DNA of 64,000 nt, from the IMG/VR virus record IMGVR_UViG_3300032330_001252, positions 18,432 to 82,431 of that record; one strand, given 5' to 3'. The notes beneath the pieces were generated by a model. The model was not told the DNA's origin and did no database searches. It saw nothing but the letters and a program-made list of their open reading frames with translations. The stretch comes from a virus. Its lineage: Duplodnaviria; Caudoviricetes. Shown here piece after piece: positions 33,595-64,000 of the stretch (position 1 is the first letter of the stretch; each line of letters starts with the position of its first letter). A program made the translations under genes and the position numbers.

Positions 33595-34281
33595 ATGGCA
33601 AGTTCATCAGGAAAAAAAGCTCGCAGAGCACAAACTCAACCACTAAATCCAATTGAATATGGATTTAAAGATGTTAAACCCCTAAATTTTATTCAGGGCG
33701 AGTACTTAGAAGCAATCAAATATAATGATATTATTTTTGGTATAGGTTCAGCAGGTACTGGAAAAACATTTGTGGCAGCATCGTATGCAGCTGGAGAGCT
33801 ATTCCACAGACGAATTAATAAAATTATTTTAACAAGACCTAATGTAGAAACAGGAAGAGGTTTAGGCTTCTTGCCTGGAGAATTAGAGGAGAAATACGCT
33901 CCTTACTTAGATCCATTTGACCAAGTTTTCAAACGCACGCTTGGCGCAGGTTTCTACGAATATGCTCTTAAATCAAAAACTATTGAACCAAAGCCGCTGG
34001 GATTTATGCGAGGTGCCTCATTTGAGAACTCAATCATTCTAGTAGACGAAGTTCAAAATATGACCAAAACCGAGTTCAAGATGTTATTATCACGAATCGG
34101 TAAAAACTGTAAAGTAATTTTATCAGGAGACCCAGACCAAACAGATATTGAAGATAGTGGCCTAGAAGATGCAGTACATCGTCTAGAAGGTATCCCAGGT
34201 ATTGAAATGGTTAGATTCTTAGACGAAGACATTGTTCGTAGTAAGATGTGTAAACAAATTATTATGGCATATAGAAATTAA
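33595..34281 (+). CDS. phoH: PhoH-family ATPase
   Basis: GSAGTGKT Walker A; LTRPNVE; GFLPG; FMRGASF; DEVQN; GDPDQTD. Confidence 0.93.
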   Translation: MASSSGKKARRAQTQPLNPIEYGFKDVKPLNFIQGEYLEAIKYNDIIFGIGSAGTGKTFVAASYAAGELFHRRINKIILTRPNVETGRGLGFLPGELEEKYAPYLDPFDQVFKRTLGAGFYEYALKSKTIEPKPLGFMRGASFENSIILVDEVQNMTKTEFKMLLSRIGKNCKVILSGDPDQTDIEDSGLEDAVHRLEGIPGIEMVRFLDEDIVRSKMCKQIIMAYRN

Positions 34282-60159: not shown

Positions 60160-60250
60160 TGGCGGAAGACGGAGGAGTCGAACCCCATCCCATTTCTGAG
60201 AACCTAGTTTTCAAGGCTAGTCGCCGACCTGCTCAGCTGCATCATCTTCC
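60160..60250 (-). tRNA. tRNA-Ser (TGA), long variable arm, imperfect D-stem
   Basis: GGAAGAT/GTCTTCC acceptor; G discriminator; loop CTTGAAA; variable hairpin TCTCA-GAAA-TGGGA; CCA. Confidence 0.8.
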
Positions 60251-60810
60251 TGTGCTTCTTGTTCACGTTTTTTAAGTACGCGACCTAATCTTTCGACAAC
60301 TTCATCCGAAGTCATCCAAATGTCTTTGTTGTGAAGCATATCTTTAATTTCTGCTTCAGTAAGGAAGTCTTTGTAGACTTCGCTTAAAAATTTCTCTGAC
60401 CATGCTCGTTCAAACTGTAGCTGATCATACATTTCTCCACCTTTGCCAAATGTTCCTGCACTATAGTTGTGAAACATAAATAGTGAATGTGGAGTTACTT
60501 GATACTCATGTCCACTAAGAAAAATCATAGTAGCAGCACTCATACAAGCACCTTCTACGCTAGTAATAATGTGAGCATCTGACTCACCCATTACGCGTAG
60601 GAATTGTAGTGTCGTGTAAAGATCACCACCCATTGAATTGATGTAAATACAAATTACATCAGTTGCTCTAGCGTTGCGAATACAGTCAAACCATTCTACA
60701 TACTCTTGAGCATCTAAAATCTCGCCTGATAAGTAGAATTCGTGTACACTAGATGTTGATTTTGTAAATTGGTTGTTTCCGCCCAATTTAGGGTCTAAGT
60801 CTTTACTCAT
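60217..60810 (-). CDS. ClpP-like serine protease
   Basis: YLSGEI; YINSMGG; CMSAA (catalytic Ser); FMFH (His); KDIWM (Asp); CAGGAG RBS. Confidence 0.88.
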   Translation of the reverse strand: MSKDLDPKLGGNNQFTKSTSSVHEFYLSGEILDAQEYVEWFDCIRNARATDVICIYINSMGGDLYTTLQFLRVMGESDAHIITSVEGACMSAATMIFLSGHEYQVTPHSLFMFHNYSAGTFGKGGEMYDQLQFERAWSEKFLSEVYKDFLTEAEIKDMLHNKDIWMTSDEVVERLGRVLKKREQEAQEDDAAEQVGD

Positions 60811-60826
60811 AATGCTCCTGTTAATA

Positions 60827-61140
60827 CTAGCTTATTCTGTTACGAGGAAAACTAGCGAAACCCTAAGCGGCAATTAAGCTGCTAAAGCGTAAACTGAATC
60901 GTTTGCGTTTATTTTTGTTTTGCTTCTGCAACTGGGAACAACCCCAATCCTAAGGCTTCTGCGTTACCTAGTTGTCCACGCCTTTACTCTTTGCCCTGTC
61001 GAAACCAAATGCAGCCCCATCAGAAGTATACCACGCTAGAGCCCATATAGGTTTCTTTCATCTAGGACATATACTTCTGGTGGAGCTGGGCGGAGTCGAA
61101 CCGCCGTCCAGAACACTTTTCTTTTTGCTTCATACAACCA
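60827..61140 (-). ncRNA. ssrA: Circularly permuted (two-piece) tmRNA: acceptor piece ~61140-61078, intervening segment 61077-61019, coding piece 61018-~60827
   Basis: T-arm GGCGG-TTCGACT-CCGCC and CAGCTCC-A-CCA lie upstream of GGGGCTG...TGGTTTCGAC; G3:U70 pair; tag ORF GCA AAC GAT TCA GTT TAC GCT TTA GCA GCT TAA (ANDSVYALAA*) at 60906-60874. Confidence 0.92.
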
Positions 61141-61141
61141 T

Positions 61142-61150
61142 ATTATAACA
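61142..61150 (-). promoter_or_regulatory. Extended -10 promoter for the tmRNA
   Basis: TG-T-TATAAT directly upstream of the acceptor piece. Confidence 0.6.
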
Positions 61151-61252
61151 CACTACCCATGCTGGGTGCTCCCAGTTACCCGCGGAAGGTGTGCGCGCGA
61201 TTACTCCGCATATATGCATTAAGTGGCGAGTAATGTGTTATAATATAGAGTA

Positions 61253-61504
61253 TTAAACATACTCTATGATTACTGAATCATCTGTATAATTTGCATATAG
61301 TAGCTCTATTTCTTGTGCAAATGCTTTAGCATCTGTTAAAGTTGCAAATTCTATTTGTATAGTATTATCGTCTAGTAAAATAAAGTCACCAACAATTTTA
61401 TTTTGCATTACATATCTTGAAAACAAGTTAGTACGTGCATCTATTTTTTCTTGTGATATTTCTTTACTTAAACCAATACCTATTTTACCTATAAGTGTAG
61501 TCAT
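61253..61504 (-). CDS. Hypothetical protein
   Basis: 83 aa AT-rich ORF with a GAG RBS, between tRNA-Thr and the tmRNA. Confidence 0.6.
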   Translation of the reverse strand: MTTLIGKIGIGLSKEISQEKIDARTNLFSRYVMQNKIVGDFILLDDNTIQIEFATLTDAKAFAQEIELLYANYTDDSVIIEYV

Positions 61505-61518
61505 AAATATCTCTAAAC

Positions 61519-61593
61519 TGGTGCCGACTATCGGATTCGAACTGATGACCTATCGCTTACAAGGCGATTGCACTACCACTGTGCTAAGTCGGC
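61519..61593 (-). tRNA. tRNA-Thr (TGT)
   Basis: GCCGACT/AGTCGGC acceptor; ATCGC-CTTGTAA-GCGAT; CCA. Confidence 0.93.
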
Positions 61594-61594
61594 A

Positions 61595-61669
61595 TGGAGT
61601 AGGTGACAGGATTCGAACCTGCATTGAACGGATTTGCAATCCGACGCGTAGCCGTTCCGCCACACCTAC
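61595..61669 (-). tRNA. tRNA-Cys (GCA)
   Basis: GTAGGTG/CACCTAC acceptor; U discriminator; loop TTGCAAA; CCA. Confidence 0.92.
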
Positions 61670-62026: not shown

Positions 62027-62497
62027 CTAATTTGCAAGTACAAATTTTAATCTGTCAGCAGCATAACTAGCTGCAAATGCTCGTGGTTTTACTTGTGCAT
62101 CAATATTGCAAGTACCTTTGATATACCCTACAGCTTGCTGTACAACTGCACTAGATTTATAGCGTTCATTAGGGTTAATATCTAGATGAACCTCAACATG
62201 ACGATCTTCTAATACATCGGCTAATTCGTGGAATAGATCGCTTACTTTATAAACTTCTTGCATTAAACGCATTGAAGGTTTGCTGGCTTTTTGATCCCAG
62301 TCACGTTCACGCTGAACATCACCAAAAATCTTACAGCCGTGTTTACCATCAATGTGTACTACAATAGCTAAAGTATAGTCTGCGTACCATTTACCATGAA
62401 TTTGTACTCGCTCTGAATCAGCACCTAAATAAACTTTAGTTTCAGGTGAGCATTGCCGAATATAATCTTTTACTTCTTGAATGTTAAATTTACGCAT
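62027..62497 (-). CDS. RNase H-like protein (YkuK/DUF458 type)
   Basis: YLGADS; RLMQEV; VHLDIN; ASYAAD. Confidence 0.75.
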   Translation of the reverse strand: MRKFNIQEVKDYIRQCSPETKVYLGADSERVQIHGKWYADYTLAIVVHIDGKHGCKIFGDVQRERDWDQKASKPSMRLMQEVYKVSDLFHELADVLEDRHVEVHLDINPNERYKSSAVVQQAVGYIKGTCNIDAQVKPRAFAASYAADRLKFVLAN

Positions 62498-63381: not shown

Positions 63382-63482
63382 TAAAGGCTTAGATTTGTAT
63401 AGGAACAAATCGAAACAGTACGTTAGTTTCACCATAAGAAGAAGTAACTGTTTCTATCACCATATACAAATCTAAGCCTTTA
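63382..63482 (-). ncRNA. Candidate Y-RNA-like structured RNA (element A)
   Basis: Perfect 20-bp terminal inverted repeat; inner GAAACAGT/ACTGTTTC stem; same AGTTACTTC motif. Confidence 0.55.
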
Positions 63483-63547: not shown

Positions 63548-64000
63548 TTAAACGGCTTCCCGTTCCAAGGCTTGGATGTAGTCTACTACAGCTTCTGAGA
63601 ATCCATTGACCTCAGTCCAAGCGTTGTGGTTTACTCCATTTTCGTAGGAGGCTACATTTACAACATAGCCTTTGCCTCGTGGAGCATCTGGGCGATCATA
63701 GCTTTGTTCGTCAGTGAACACAATACAACGATCATAACTGCCGTTAGCGTTGACTGTTCGCATAGCGTTACCCAACTGAGTACCGCCATGATGCTGACTA
63801 TTAGAGATTGCTTCGCGGAGAGCAAATCCACGACGAGGTGCTACACGCACAGCATTATTACTAAAACTATAAATCTCGACTTCCTCACAAACTTCTCGGC
63901 ACAACATAGCGAGTGCTGCTGCCGCATCGAAGCGATCTAGATCTGATTTTGAGGAGATTTTAGAACCGAACATAGAGCCACTAACGTCGATTACTAAAAC
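63548..64000 (-). CDS. TROVE-domain (Ro60/Rsr-like) protein, C-terminal vWA domain; 5'-truncated by the window edge
   Basis: Frame is open to base 64000: VLVIDVSGSM (MIDAS DxSxS)...GGT...IVFTDEQ...GYVVNVASYENGV...NGFSEAV. Confidence 0.85.
   Translation of the reverse strand, partial: VLVIDVSGSMFGSKISSKSDLDRFDAAAALAMLCREVCEEVEIYSFSNNAVRVAPRRGFALREAISNSQHHGGTQLGNAMRTVNANGSYDRCIVFTDEQSYDRPDAPRGKGYVVNVASYENGVNHNAWTEVNGFSEAVVDYIQALEREAV

What the first reader, a model, noticed from the sequence alone, without database searches (positions are those of the whole stretch)
60827..61140. Phage-encoded circularly permuted (two-piece) tmRNA
Seen: on the minus strand the T-arm and CAGCTCC-ACCA come first, then a 59-nt intervening segment closed by a 10-bp inverted repeat (61021-61030 / 61070-61079), then GGGGCTG with G3:U70, helix-2 complementarity (CAGGGCA/TGTTCTG, ACAACT/GGTTGT) and the tag ANDSVYALAA*. 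Known: permuted ssrA occurs in Alphaproteobacteria and some Betaproteobacteria and Cyanobacteria, and ALAA-ending tags are ClpXP degrons. Standard tRNA/ORF annotation would miss it. Inference: acquired from, or adapted to, a proteobacterial host; no SmpB is seen in the window.
Basis: partly seen in the sequence, partly recalled or inferred. Interest (0 to 1): 0.85.

Follow-up and report, generated by a model that had tools for sequence, protein, structure and literature searches.

The report
Phage two-piece tmRNA beside ClpP
An uncultured T5-like phage carries a real, well-conserved "back-to-front" (two-piece) gene for tmRNA, the RNA that frees stalled ribosomes; phage genes of this kind are already published, so it is an ordinary new member, with some new detail on how the RNA is probably cut out of a tRNA transcript.

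Summary
ARAGORN calls a permuted tmRNA with tag ANDSVYALAA, and Rfam tmRNA_permuted scores 114.5 bits against a cut-off of 47. The beta-type model aligns end to end but scores 79.4, just under its cut-off of 84.

The carrier is an 82-kb IMG/VR contig of a divergent T5-like phage. No SmpB was found on it.

A homologous tmRNA is present in 28 of 55 related viral contigs, usually directly upstream of a ClpP-like protease gene. It is also present, unannotated, in Stenotrophomonas phage BUCTxx99.

Nine helices show strong covariation, G3:U70 is invariant, and the tag keeps AND…(F/Y)ALAA through synonymous changes. The gene is therefore under selection as a working tmRNA.

Phage two-piece tmRNAs are already published (PMC9004378: 53 unique). 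This scan has also noted them on many other DNAs (59 notes). The finding is a new member of a known kind.

Two details look new:
- The "TATAAT" box before the gene is one arm of a covarying 17–22-bp leader helix that starts at the CCA of the upstream tRNA in relatives. It is not a promoter.
- Both spacers can carry the same conserved hairpin module, seen here only in phage loci.

Both details point to processing from a tRNA polycistron. The host is unknown.

The parts
61227..61248 (-). Leader helix, 5' arm (CTATATTATAACACATTACTCG). In most relatives this arm starts with the CCA end of the upstream tRNA.
   Evidence: the repeat finder pair I5; RNAfold. The helix is 22 bp in the window, against a shuffled mean of 8.7 bp. 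Across 17 distinct arm pairs, 97.7% of positions are paired and 12 of 18 positions show compensatory change; the arm-swap control gives 79.0 +/- 2.2%.
61160..61226 (-). Leader insert (about 67 nt) enclosed by the leader helix. It contains a covarying hairpin, CTGGG-AGCA-CCCAG (61175-61162). Function unknown.
   Evidence: The block is conserved in 8 relatives, with compensatory changes in the hairpin (CTGGG/CCCAG, TCGGG/CCCGA, CTAGG/CCTAG, TCAGG/CCTGA). No Rfam family matches at E <= 10.
61138..61159 (-). Leader helix, 3' arm (TGGGTAGTGTGTTATAATATGG). It contains the TGTTATAAT box that resembles an extended -10 element, and it overlaps the first two G of the acceptor piece.
   Evidence: The box abuts ATGGTTGT with 0-2 nt of spacing, so a transcript started from it would lack the covarying GGUUGU strand (helix 1). 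Bacterial beta-type genes and relatives L157-L159 instead have a -10 box 6-7 nt upstream.
61078..61139 (-). tmRNA acceptor piece: helix-2 3' strands (GGTTGT, TGTTCTG), T arm, acceptor 3' strand CAGCTCC, discriminator A, encoded CCA.
   Evidence: ARAGORN; RF04321 positions 1-62. Helices 1-4 are 95-100% paired with compensatory changes.
61019..61077 (-). Intervening segment (59 nt), removed during maturation. It has a 9-bp closing stem (AGAAGTATA/TATACTTCT) and an inner hairpin carrying the conserved module GTCCTAGATGAAAGAAACC..GGGCTCTAG.
   Evidence: All 9 pairs of the closing stem show compensatory change (helix 5). The module recurs in 13 phage loci, in either spacer position. RNAalifold predicts one long hairpin; 13 of 32 pairs are compensatory.
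60826..61018 (-). tmRNA coding piece: GGGGCTG (G3:U70), D-loop analogue TGGTTTCGA, helix-2 5' strands, two hairpins in place of PK1, tag frame, helix 5, and a post-tag hairpin with the conserved loop TTCCTCGTAACAGAATA.
   Evidence: Helices 6-9 are supported by covariation. G3:U70 is present in 23 of 23 relatives.
60874..60906 (-). Tag reading frame: resume codon GCA through TAA, encoding ANDSVYALAA*.
   Evidence: ARAGORN. Twenty distinct tag DNAs keep A-N-D and (F/Y)-A-L-A-A, with synonymous changes at codons 1, 3, 7, 8 and 10.
60217..60810 (-). ClpP-like serine protease gene (197 aa). Its ATG lies 63 nt after the tag stop codon and 15 nt after the post-tag hairpin, with an AGGAG Shine-Dalgarno site at 60819-60815. 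No terminator lies between it and the tmRNA.
   Evidence: phrog_1827, 210 bits; Pfam CLP_protease, 42.5 bits against a cut-off of 20.2. Ser and His, and probably Asp, align with the catalytic residues of solved ClpPs. No terminator was found. The start codon lies 22-130 nt after the tmRNA loop in 26 of 29 sequences, duplicates included.
61519..61669 (-). Upstream tRNA-Cys(GCA) and tRNA-Thr(UGU) on the same strand. In relatives, tRNA-Thr or tRNA-Tyr runs directly into the leader helix.
   Evidence: ARAGORN; synteny across relatives.
61253..61504 (-). 83-aa ORF with no family match. It sits between tRNA-Thr and the leader helix in this phage and not in most relatives.

Best explanation
This is a working two-piece tmRNA (ssrA) gene carried as an accessory gene in the tRNA island of an uncultured T5-like phage.

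Shown:
- The gene has the permuted order: acceptor piece, spacer, coding piece.
- All tRNA-like and mRNA-like elements are present.
- Relatives maintain these elements through compensatory base changes and through synonymous codon changes in the tag.

Inferred mechanism:
1. The RNA is transcribed as part of the minus-strand tRNA operon (tRNA-Cys, tRNA-Thr, orf83, leader, tmRNA, clpP-like) and not from a promoter of its own.
2. Two rod-like, stem-closed spacers (the leader and the intervening segment) are cut out. A double-strand-specific nuclease such as host RNase III probably does this. RNase P then makes the 5' end of the coding piece, and exonucleases trim back to the encoded CCA.
3. The two pieces stay joined through the acceptor stem and helix 2.
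4. Host AlaRS charges the RNA through G3:U70.
5. Host SmpB and EF-Tu deliver it to ribosomes stalled on broken mRNAs.
6. Translation resumes on GCA and appends ANDSVYALAA. The ALAA end sends the product to ClpXP-type proteolysis.

The ClpP-like gene immediately downstream is probably on the same transcript and may supply the proteolytic subunit. The likely benefit to the phage is that ribosomes keep recycling, and amino acids are recovered, while host and phage nucleases generate truncated mRNAs during infection.
For: Identity:
- ARAGORN calls a permuted tmRNA.
- RF04321 scores 114.5 bits against a cut-off of 47.
- RF01850 aligns end to end, E = 3.7e-24.

Selection on structure (alignment of 24 sequences):
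- 93.2% of cells are paired, against 80.0 +/- 0.7% in shuffles and <= 52% with slid partners.
- 36 of 56 pairs show compensatory change, against 20.3 +/- 2.1 in shuffles (0 of 500 shuffles reach it).
- G3:U70 is invariant, 23 of 23.

Selection on the tag peptide:
- AND and (F/Y)ALAA are kept in all but a few of 20 distinct tag DNAs, with synonymous changes at five codons. TAA is invariant.

Conservation:
- A homologue occurs in 28 of 55 contigs that encode the related ClpP-like protein.
- Homologues also occur in Stenotrophomonas phage BUCTxx99 and in two phage-like contigs of a MAG.

Phage context.

Dependence on the host: no SmpB on the contig.

Co-transcription and processing:
- The gene sits in a same-strand tRNA cluster.
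- The leader helix is 97.7% paired with 12 of 18 positions compensatory.
- No properly spaced promoter and no terminator were found.
- The spacer module and rod-like fold are conserved.
- The ClpP-like gene starts 15 nt after the post-tag hairpin and has Ser, His and probably Asp in place.
Against: - Nothing here shows expression, cleavage into two pieces, alanylation or tagging.
- The beta-type model falls just below its curated cut-off (79.4 against 84).
- PK1 is replaced by one or two plain hairpins, and PK2-PK4 are absent. This is a reduced tmRNA whose efficiency is unknown.
- RNase III involvement is inferred only from helix length and shape.
- The ClpP adjacency is a synteny inherited within one phage clade. 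Only 1 of 83 permuted tmRNA loci found without reference to ClpP has a detectable ClpP-like neighbour. A functional link is therefore not shown by the genomics here.
- The contig is incomplete, so a phage SmpB elsewhere is not excluded.
Confidence: 0.8

Rival explanations
1. The RNA is a decoy or inhibitor. It binds host SmpB, EF-Tu or AlaRS to shut down or divert host trans-translation, as reported for the tag-less tmRNA-like RNA of mycobacteriophage DS6A, and does not tag proteins itself.
For: No phage SmpB was found. [quoted passage not shown] The pseudoknot content is reduced.
Against: The tag frame is intact. It evolves under peptide-level constraint (synonymous changes, invariant stop codon, ALAA end). 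Helix 5, which presents the stop codon, covaries. A pure decoy would not need any of this.
Confidence: 0.07
2. The gene is a recently captured or decaying piece of host ssrA, for example from imprecise excision at a tmRNA attachment site, with no function in the phage.
For: Temperate elements often integrate into ssrA and carry fragments of it (PMC9004378). Many IMG/VR contigs matched by the T-arm pattern hold tmRNAs.
Against: The gene is full length. It holds a fixed syntenic position in at least 25 related lytic-type T5-like contigs. It shows abundant compensatory change. It forms a phage clade with 100/99 support, apart from the bacterial copies sampled. None of the window genes scanned matched an integrase.
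Confidence: 0.03
3. The tmRNA works as in the best explanation, but its selective value is counter-defence. It would rescue ribosomes stalled by host abortive-infection nucleases that cut mRNAs or tRNAs, in the same way that phage tRNA arrays are thought to replace cleaved host tRNAs.
For: The gene lies inside a 13-tRNA island with other RNA-handling genes: an RNaseH_like PF04308 protein, a phosphoesterase and a Ro60-like protein. The same tmRNA type recurs in the tRNA islands of unrelated large phages.
Against: No defence system or host is known for this phage. Co-location with tRNAs is equally explained by shared processing. Nothing here separates this benefit from general ribosome recycling.
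Confidence: 0.2
4. The stem-closed spacers are DNA-level features, such as miniature mobile inserts or recombination sites that target CCA junctions, and not RNA processing signals.
For: The same roughly 35-nt module occurs in either the leader or the intervening position, and in different tmRNA lineages. This looks modular. Insert length ranges from 5 to about 170 nt.
Against: The arms differ in sequence between phages yet stay complementary, including G-U pairs, which only RNA tolerates. Mobile-element terminal repeats are normally conserved in sequence instead. The helices begin exactly at RNA ends (CCA / G1).
Confidence: 0.12

Closest known systems
Betaproteobacterial two-piece tmRNA (Rfam RF01850 beta_tmRNA; Sharkady and Williams 2004, as cited in PMC9004378 and PMC11915505)
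   Same: - The break point of the permutation is the same.
- The acceptor piece starts with AUGGUUGUA.
- The intervening segment is closed by ACC-UAAG...CUUUUGAU-GGGG.
- A post-tag hairpin carries a related conserved loop (CCUYGUWACMRAA).
- Tags are of the ANDxxFALAA type.
- The model aligns end to end at E = 3.7e-24.
   Different: - It scores 79.4 bits, below the cut-off of 84. Three bacterial genes sampled score 169-296 bits.
- It lies in a phage tRNA operon, not on a chromosome.
- A long leader helix replaces the closely spaced -10 promoter seen in the bacterial genes.
- The terminal GC-rich terminator hairpin is missing.
- The spacer carries a conserved module not seen in the three bacterial genes.
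Published phage-encoded two-piece tmRNAs (PMC9004378 Table S1: Melnitz, Mosig, HTVC008M, phiCbK-like Caulobacter phages, cyanophages, Stenotrophomonas phages Mendera/Moby/YB07, Citrobacter phages Mordin/Moogle, Bordetella PHB04, Cellulophaga phi4:1)
   Same: It is a complete permuted ssrA carried by a large lytic phage. It is often found in phages whose host lineage is not one reported to carry permuted tmRNAs.
   Different: - No T5-like (Demerecviridae-like) siphophage appears in the part of the table I read.
- Two cultured Demerecviridae, pVp-1 and T5-like poul149, have no tmRNA.
- No riboswitch was detected here, unlike Melnitz and Mosig.
- Melnitz carries an alpha-type tmRNA; this one is beta-type.
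One-piece phage tmRNAs (for example mycobacteriophage Bxz1 and the cluster C phages listed in PMC9004378 Table S1)
   Same: Both are phage accessory ssrA genes located among tRNA genes.
   Different: Those have the standard gene order and yield a single RNA molecule. This one is permuted.
Processing stalks of rRNA operons and the intervening sequences of 23S rRNA that RNase III excises (from my own knowledge; not tested here)
   Same: Long, near-perfect helices bring together the ends of sequence to be separated. The excised spacer is not re-ligated, so the RNA remains fragmented but functional.
   Different: Here the helices flank junk or module inserts between a CCA 3' end and the next RNA's 5' end. 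No cleavage data exist.

Membership tests
Two-piece (circularly permuted) tmRNA, Rfam RF04321 | The covariance model scores at or above the curated cut-off of 47 bits. | tested here: met
   114.5 bits over model positions 1-213, E = 1.3e-21.
Two-piece (circularly permuted) tmRNA, Rfam RF04321 | Permuted gene order: T arm, acceptor 3' strand and CCA lie upstream of the acceptor 5' strand and tag frame. | tested here: met
   ARAGORN flags the gene as permuted. Read directly from the sequence.
Two-piece (circularly permuted) tmRNA, Rfam RF04321 | A 7-bp acceptor stem with the G3:U70 alanine identity pair. | tested here: met
   GGGGCTG pairs with CAGCTCC. G3:U70 is present in 23 of 23 relatives, and three other acceptor-stem pairs show compensatory change.
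Two-piece (circularly permuted) tmRNA, Rfam RF04321 | An inter-piece helix 2 holds the two RNAs together. | tested here: met
   Helices 1 and 2 are 100% and 94.6% paired, and 7 of their 13 pairs show compensatory change.
Two-piece (circularly permuted) tmRNA, Rfam RF04321 | A tag reading frame that starts at an Ala resume codon and ends in a hydrophobic degron, with the stop codon in the loop of helix 5. | tested here: met
   GCA..TAA encodes ANDSVYALAA*. Relatives conserve the peptide through synonymous changes. Helix 5 is 79.9% paired and 2 of its 6 pairs show compensatory change.
Two-piece (circularly permuted) tmRNA, Rfam RF04321 | The mature RNA is two separate molecules. It is alanylated, binds SmpB and tags non-stop products. 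| not testable with these tools
   This needs northern blotting or RNA-end mapping, plus a non-stop reporter assay.
Beta-type two-piece tmRNA, Rfam RF01850 | The covariance model scores at or above the curated cut-off of 84 bits. | tested here: not met
   79.4 bits (E = 3.7e-24, full-length alignment). BUCTxx99 scores 81.3. Bacterial members score 169-296. I therefore describe it as having the beta-type design and being a divergent phage branch, not as a curated member.
Beta-type two-piece tmRNA, Rfam RF01850 | Shared architecture: AUGGUUGUA start, stem-closed intervening segment, post-tag hairpin with a conserved loop. | tested here: met
   Direct comparison with three bacterial genes, L311-L313, and with the RF01850 alignment.
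Beta-type two-piece tmRNA, Rfam RF01850 | An own promoter with a -10 box about 6-7 nt upstream of the acceptor piece. This is modelled in RF01850 positions 1-50 and seen in L311-L313. | tested here: not met
   In the window and 16 relatives the -10-like box abuts the RNA and forms the 3' arm of a covarying leader helix. Relatives L157-L159 keep the promoter arrangement.
Phage-encoded tmRNA (accessory gene of a virus) | The gene lies in a bona fide phage genome and not in flanking host DNA. | tested here: met
   The source is an IMG/VR virus record. Phage replication, tail and lysis genes lie on the same contig. The position is syntenic in related viral contigs up to 104 kb long.
Trans-translation system (tmRNA + SmpB) | A dedicated SmpB partner is encoded alongside. 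| tested here: not met
   No PF01668 match at E <= 1 in the 82-kb contig, which is estimated 78% complete. The system would depend on host SmpB.
ClpP protease family (Pfam PF00574), for the neighbouring gene | The Pfam score exceeds the cut-off, and the Ser-His-Asp catalytic triad is present. | tested here: met
   42.5 bits against a cut-off of 20.2. Ser (in GACMSAA) and His (in MFHN) align with the catalytic residues of ClpP structures 6hwm and 3q7h. Asp (in NKDIW) aligns with the RD motif. The Asp assignment rests on my memory of ClpP numbering. Activity and ClpX docking were not tested.

The most novel reading that the evidence does not exclude
The two stem-closed spacers (leader and intervening segment), with their shared module seen here only in phage loci, are a dedicated maturation cassette. 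The cassette would let a phage embed a two-piece tmRNA in a tRNA polycistron without a promoter of its own. A double-strand-specific nuclease would release the pieces, and the coding piece would be made on the same transcript as a phage ClpP. The phage would then run its own coupled 'tag and degrade' module, timed by tRNA-operon expression.
Probability: 0.25. Interest if true: 0.55.

Novelty: new member of a known kind. Interest (0 to 1): 0.35.

Why it matters
As a class this is not new, because phage two-piece tmRNAs are already catalogued. The value lies in three details.

1. It extends the class to an abundant, uncultured T5-like clade. It also exposes an unannotated copy in a cultured Stenotrophomonas phage (BUCTxx99), which offers a tractable laboratory system.

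2. The alignment gives a well-supported secondary structure for a reduced, beta-design tmRNA that lacks classical pseudoknots.

3. The covarying leader helix and the shared spacer module suggest how phages produce a two-piece RNA from a tRNA transcript. This is directly testable by RNA-end mapping in wild-type and RNase III-deficient laboratory hosts.

The recurrent placement next to a ClpP-like gene hints at a functional pairing of tagging and proteolysis, but this is not shown.

Tried and rejected
- **Promoter reading of TGTTATAAT.** Rejected. The box has no spacing to the covarying GGUUGU strand, and it is one arm of a helix conserved by compensation.

- **Trans pairing of the coding-piece 3' tail with the leader 3' arm.** Cognate duplexes average -10.2 kcal/mol against -8.7 for non-cognate ones, so this is not supported. 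Some tails simply begin another spacer-like element.

- **Riboswitch or ribozyme in the leader or spacer** (glutamine riboswitch as in Melnitz, hammerhead). No Rfam match at E <= 10.

- **Host or donor search with a 15-mer from the post-tag loop in 596 Gb of genomes.** Nearly all hits were chance. Only two were real, and both lie on phage-like contigs binned into Bacteroidota MAGs.

- **General tmRNA-ClpP linkage.** Only 1 of 83 permuted loci found independently of ClpP has a detectable ClpP-like neighbour. The linkage seen here is clade synteny. Other notes of this scan report it in T4-like phages, which I did not test.

- **Haliscomenobacter as host.** The MAG's own ssrA is one-piece, and the two permuted copies sit on phage-like contigs. 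Shine-Dalgarno motifs precede 34% of this phage's genes against 4.5% background, which argues weakly against a Bacteroidota host.

- **Supplements of PMC11915505.** These held no phage list.

- **PMC516066.** Not held in the library.

- **Genome G028.** It is unpublished; it appeared and was not used for any claim.
Full report
**Observation.**
On the minus strand of the window, ARAGORN reports a permuted tmRNA at 60783-61170 with tag ANDSVYALAA*. Rfam's tmRNA_permuted model (RF04321) matches 60874-61139 at 114.5 bits against a cut-off of 47 (E = 1.3e-21).

Reading the sequence gives these elements:
- T arm at 61105-61089.
- Acceptor 3' strand CAGCTCC at 61088-61082, discriminator A, and an encoded CCA ending at 61078.
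- A 59-nt intervening segment at 61077-61019.
- GGGGCTG at 61018-61012 with G3:U70.
- Helix-2 pairings TGTTCTG/CAGGGCA and GGTTGT/ACAACT.
- A tag frame at 60906-60874.

ARAGORN's 'tRNA-His(atg)' at 61078-61172 is an artefact on the tmRNA T arm.

**What carries it.**
The window is the right-hand 64 kb of an 82,431-bp IMG/VR virus record. The record has no terminal repeat, 38.5% G+C and an estimated completeness of 78%.

The contig encodes DNA polymerase A, a DnaB-like helicase, primase, SbcCD, ribonucleotide reductase, NAD-dependent ligase, tail fibre proteins, a GH19 endolysin and PhoH. Its polymerase is most similar, at 49% identity, to those of Vibrio T5-like phages such as pVp-1, a member of Demerecviridae. 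It is thus a divergent T5-like phage.

The tmRNA lies inside a same-strand island of 13 tRNA genes. No SmpB is encoded on the contig. Two cultured Demerecviridae, pVp-1 and T5-like poul149, have no tmRNA of either form. The gene is therefore an accessory of this uncultured clade.

**Which kind of tmRNA.**
Among the older lineage-specific Rfam models, the betaproteobacterial one (RF01850) is the best match. It aligns end to end (positions 1-331, E = 3.7e-24) but scores 79.4 bits, just under its cut-off of 84.

Only 3 of 151 sampled genomes of the GTDB order that contains Rhodoferax antarcticus (the genome used as centre) carry a true beta-type gene. Those three score 169-296 bits. Side-by-side reading of them shows the same architecture as the phage gene:
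- an AUGGUUGUA start;
- an intervening segment closed by ACC-UAAG...CUUUWGAU-GGGG;
- a post-tag hairpin with a related conserved loop;
- ANDxxFALAA-type tags.

The phage gene therefore shares the beta-lineage permutation and is not an independent rearrangement. It is, however, a divergent branch.

**Relatives and selection.**
A scan of IMG/VR with the neighbouring ClpP-like protein returned 55 loci. nhmmer finds a homologous tmRNA in 28 of them.

The only match in 50,697 cultured-phage records is Stenotrophomonas phage BUCTxx99. There, ARAGORN and Rfam find an unannotated permuted tmRNA with tag ANDDVYVVALAA, scoring 100.1 bits on RF04321 and 81.3 bits on RF01850.

I aligned 24 distinct sequences (A1) and scored nine helices proposed from the window sequence:
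- 93.2% of cells are paired. Shuffles give 80.0 +/- 0.7% and slid partners give at most 52%.
- 36 of 56 pairs carry compensatory changes, against 20.3 +/- 2.1 in shuffles (0 of 500 shuffles reach it).
- The covariation score is 0.352 against 0.141.
- G3:U70 is invariant in 23 of 23 sequences.

Twenty distinct tag DNAs keep A-N-D and (F/Y)-A-L-A-A, with few exceptions, through synonymous substitutions at five codons. Residues 4-5 vary freely and TAA is invariant. This is the signature of an RNA that both folds and is translated.

The PK1 position is occupied by two simple hairpins, both supported by covariation, or by one hairpin in some relatives. PK2-PK4 are absent. This is a reduced tmRNA.

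**Phylogeny and host.**
An ML tree of 95 core sequences places the window in a clade with 100/99 support. The clade holds 18 members of the T5-like group plus one phage-like contig from a Haliscomenobacter MAG. Three members of the phage group (L126, L133, L159) carry tmRNAs that branch elsewhere, which suggests occasional replacement at the locus. The three bacterial genes form a separate clade (98/85). The tree is unrooted and gives no direction of transfer.

Most IMG/VR loci that matched a T-arm pattern share phage genes with this contig. Beta-design tmRNAs are therefore widespread in environmental phages.

The host of this clade is unknown, for three reasons:
- The form of the tmRNA does not identify it. 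BUCTxx99 infects Stenotrophomonas, and published lists include phages of Citrobacter, Bordetella and Cellulophaga.
- The Haliscomenobacter MAG's own ssrA is one-piece, and its two permuted copies lie on phage-like contigs.
- Shine-Dalgarno motifs precede 34% of this phage's genes against 4.5% background. This weakly favours a host that uses Shine-Dalgarno sites, such as a proteobacterium.

**New anatomical detail 1: a leader helix where a promoter was expected.**
The TGTTATAAT box just before ATGGTTGT looks like an extended -10 element. It leaves no room for a transcription start upstream of the GGUUGU strand, which is 100% paired and covaries.

Folding the upstream region shows that the box is the 3' arm (61159-61138) of a 22-bp helix. 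The 5' arm lies at 61248-61227, and the helix encloses a 67-nt insert.

The same helix, 17-22 bp long, is present in 17 of 23 other distinct sequences, including BUCTxx99, whose arm sequences are unrelated. Shuffled controls average about 8.5 bp. I counted pairs from the base of the helix over 17 distinct arm pairs. 97.7% of positions are paired and 12 of 18 positions show compensatory change. Swapping arms between phages gives 79.0 +/- 2.2%. The arms were selected for at least 15 of 18 pairs, which inflates the observed value somewhat.

In most relatives the 5' arm begins with the CCA of tRNA-Thr or tRNA-Tyr. In the window an 83-aa ORF is inserted after tRNA-Thr. The relatives that lack the helix (L157-L159 and a few others), like the bacterial genes, have a -10 box at the normal 6-7 nt distance.

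I infer that this clade transcribes the tmRNA as part of the tRNA operon and releases it by processing.

**New anatomical detail 2: a shared spacer module.**
The intervening segment is hypervariable in length, from about 5 to 170 nt. All nine pairs of its closing stem show compensatory change (helix 5).

Inside the window's spacer is a module, GTCCTAGATGAAAGAAACC..GGGCTCTAG. It recurs in 13 phage loci from several tmRNA lineages. In two of these loci (L146, L156) it sits in the leader rather than in the intervening segment.

RNAalifold folds the whole unit into one long rod that continues the acceptor stem. 13 of its 32 pairs show compensatory change. The three bacterial genes lack the module.

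Both spacers are thus the same kind of cassette, placed between a CCA 3' end and the next RNA's 5' end. Their length and regularity suggest a double-strand-specific nuclease such as RNase III. This is inference only.

**The neighbour.**
A 197-aa ClpP-like gene starts 63 nt after the tag stop codon and 15 nt after the post-tag hairpin, with an AGGAG ribosome-binding site. It matches phrog_1827 at 210 bits and Pfam CLP_protease at 42.5 bits against a cut-off of 20.2. The catalytic Ser and His, and probably Asp, align with solved ClpPs. No terminator lies between the tmRNA and this gene.

In 26 of 29 sequences, duplicates included, the first downstream ORF of 150-230 aa (the protease in most of them) starts 22-130 nt after the tmRNA's conserved loop. 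Co-transcription is therefore likely.

This adjacency is inherited within one clade. Only 1 of 83 permuted loci found independently of ClpP has a detectable ClpP-like neighbour. ClpP-like genes are common in T5-like phages that have no tmRNA. A functional pairing of tagging and proteolysis is plausible but not shown.

**Comparison with what is known.**
Phage tmRNAs have been reported since mycobacteriophage Bxz1. PMC9004378 counted tmRNAs in 402 of 18,146 phage genomes, giving 133 unique forms, of which ARAGORN classes 53 as two-piece. That paper also discusses roles in ribosome maintenance and selective degradation. PMC11915505 lists 79 phage tmRNA sequences and built RF04321. PMC7162821 reports tmRNA and SmpB in huge phages.

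This scan has itself noted phage two-piece tmRNAs, often near ClpP, 59 times in at least 56 genomes. I found no paper that describes the leader helix or the spacer module, but the library is incomplete.

**Verdict.**
The finding is real and correctly interpreted, but it is a new member of a known kind. The leader helix, the shared spacer cassette and the ClpP synteny are modest, testable additions.

No claim in this report rests on the unpublished genome G028 that appeared.

Noticed in passing
L002:3768-4093 (-), which is OR529408.1 at about 98583-98908: Stenotrophomonas phage BUCTxx99 (109 kb, cultured) carries an unannotated permuted tmRNA with tag ANDDVYVVALAA. It has only a 4-5-nt intervening segment and a 17-bp leader helix (CCATAGGTGAGTACCCT/AGGGTACTCACCTATGG). 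It would make a usable laboratory model.
   Followed up: partly
window 60160-60250 (-): A tRNA-Ser(UGA)-like sequence: acceptor GGAAGAT/GTCTTCC, T arm, and CCA at 60162-60160. Its 5' part overlaps the last 34 nt of the ClpP-like ORF. Neither ARAGORN nor Rfam calls it, and the D arm looks imperfect.
   Followed up: partly
window 63382-63482 and 63548-64000 (-): A perfect 20-bp inverted repeat with a 61-nt insert (fold -40.5 kcal/mol, z = -5.1, no Rfam family). It lies just downstream of a Ro60/TROVE-like ORF that is cut by the contig end. Y RNA genes usually sit beside Ro60 genes, so this is a Y-RNA candidate.
   Followed up: partly
window 61078-61172 (-): ARAGORN's 95-nt 'tRNA-His (anticodon atg)' overlaps the tmRNA acceptor piece and leader. 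It is a false call, with no Rfam tRNA match.
   Followed up: yes
L125, L127, L130, L150 (alignment A1, columns 138-154 and 340-353): Four relatives have an unusual T loop (GGCAGTG instead of TTCGACT) together with a changed D-loop analogue (CACAGGATCGA instead of TGGTTTCGA). This may be tertiary co-variation in the tRNA-like domain.
   Followed up: no
G002:C1:123000-143000 (L310) and G002:C90 (L210): A Haliscomenobacter MAG contains two phage-like contigs with permuted tmRNAs. One is 183 kb with 22 tRNAs in 10 kb; the other is 23 kb. The MAG's own ssrA (on C93) is one-piece, so these are probably mis-binned or host-associated phage contigs.
   Followed up: partly
window 62027-62497 (-): A 156-aa RNaseH_like protein (PF04308, phrog_11311) in the tRNA island. 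It has 50-66% identical homologues next to tmRNAs or tRNA islands in unrelated phage contigs (L310, L023, L034).
   Followed up: no
L010, L017, L047, L049, L056, L066, L081, L084, L085, L095, L099, L103, L110, L111, L117, L121: In many other IMG/VR phage contigs, the beta-design tmRNA lies within a few kb of a PhoH-like gene (homologue of window 33595-34281) or of a GH19 endolysin, and not near ClpP.
   Followed up: no
window 61160-61226 (-): The 67-nt insert inside the leader helix is itself conserved in 8 relatives and has a covarying hairpin (CTGGG-AGCA-CCCAG). No known RNA family matches, and its function is unknown.
   Followed up: partly
L123 and L125 (alignment A1, columns 412-451): A roughly 40-nt structured insertion sits in the second hairpin of the PK1 region of two relatives. 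This shows that the region tolerates expansion.
   Followed up: no
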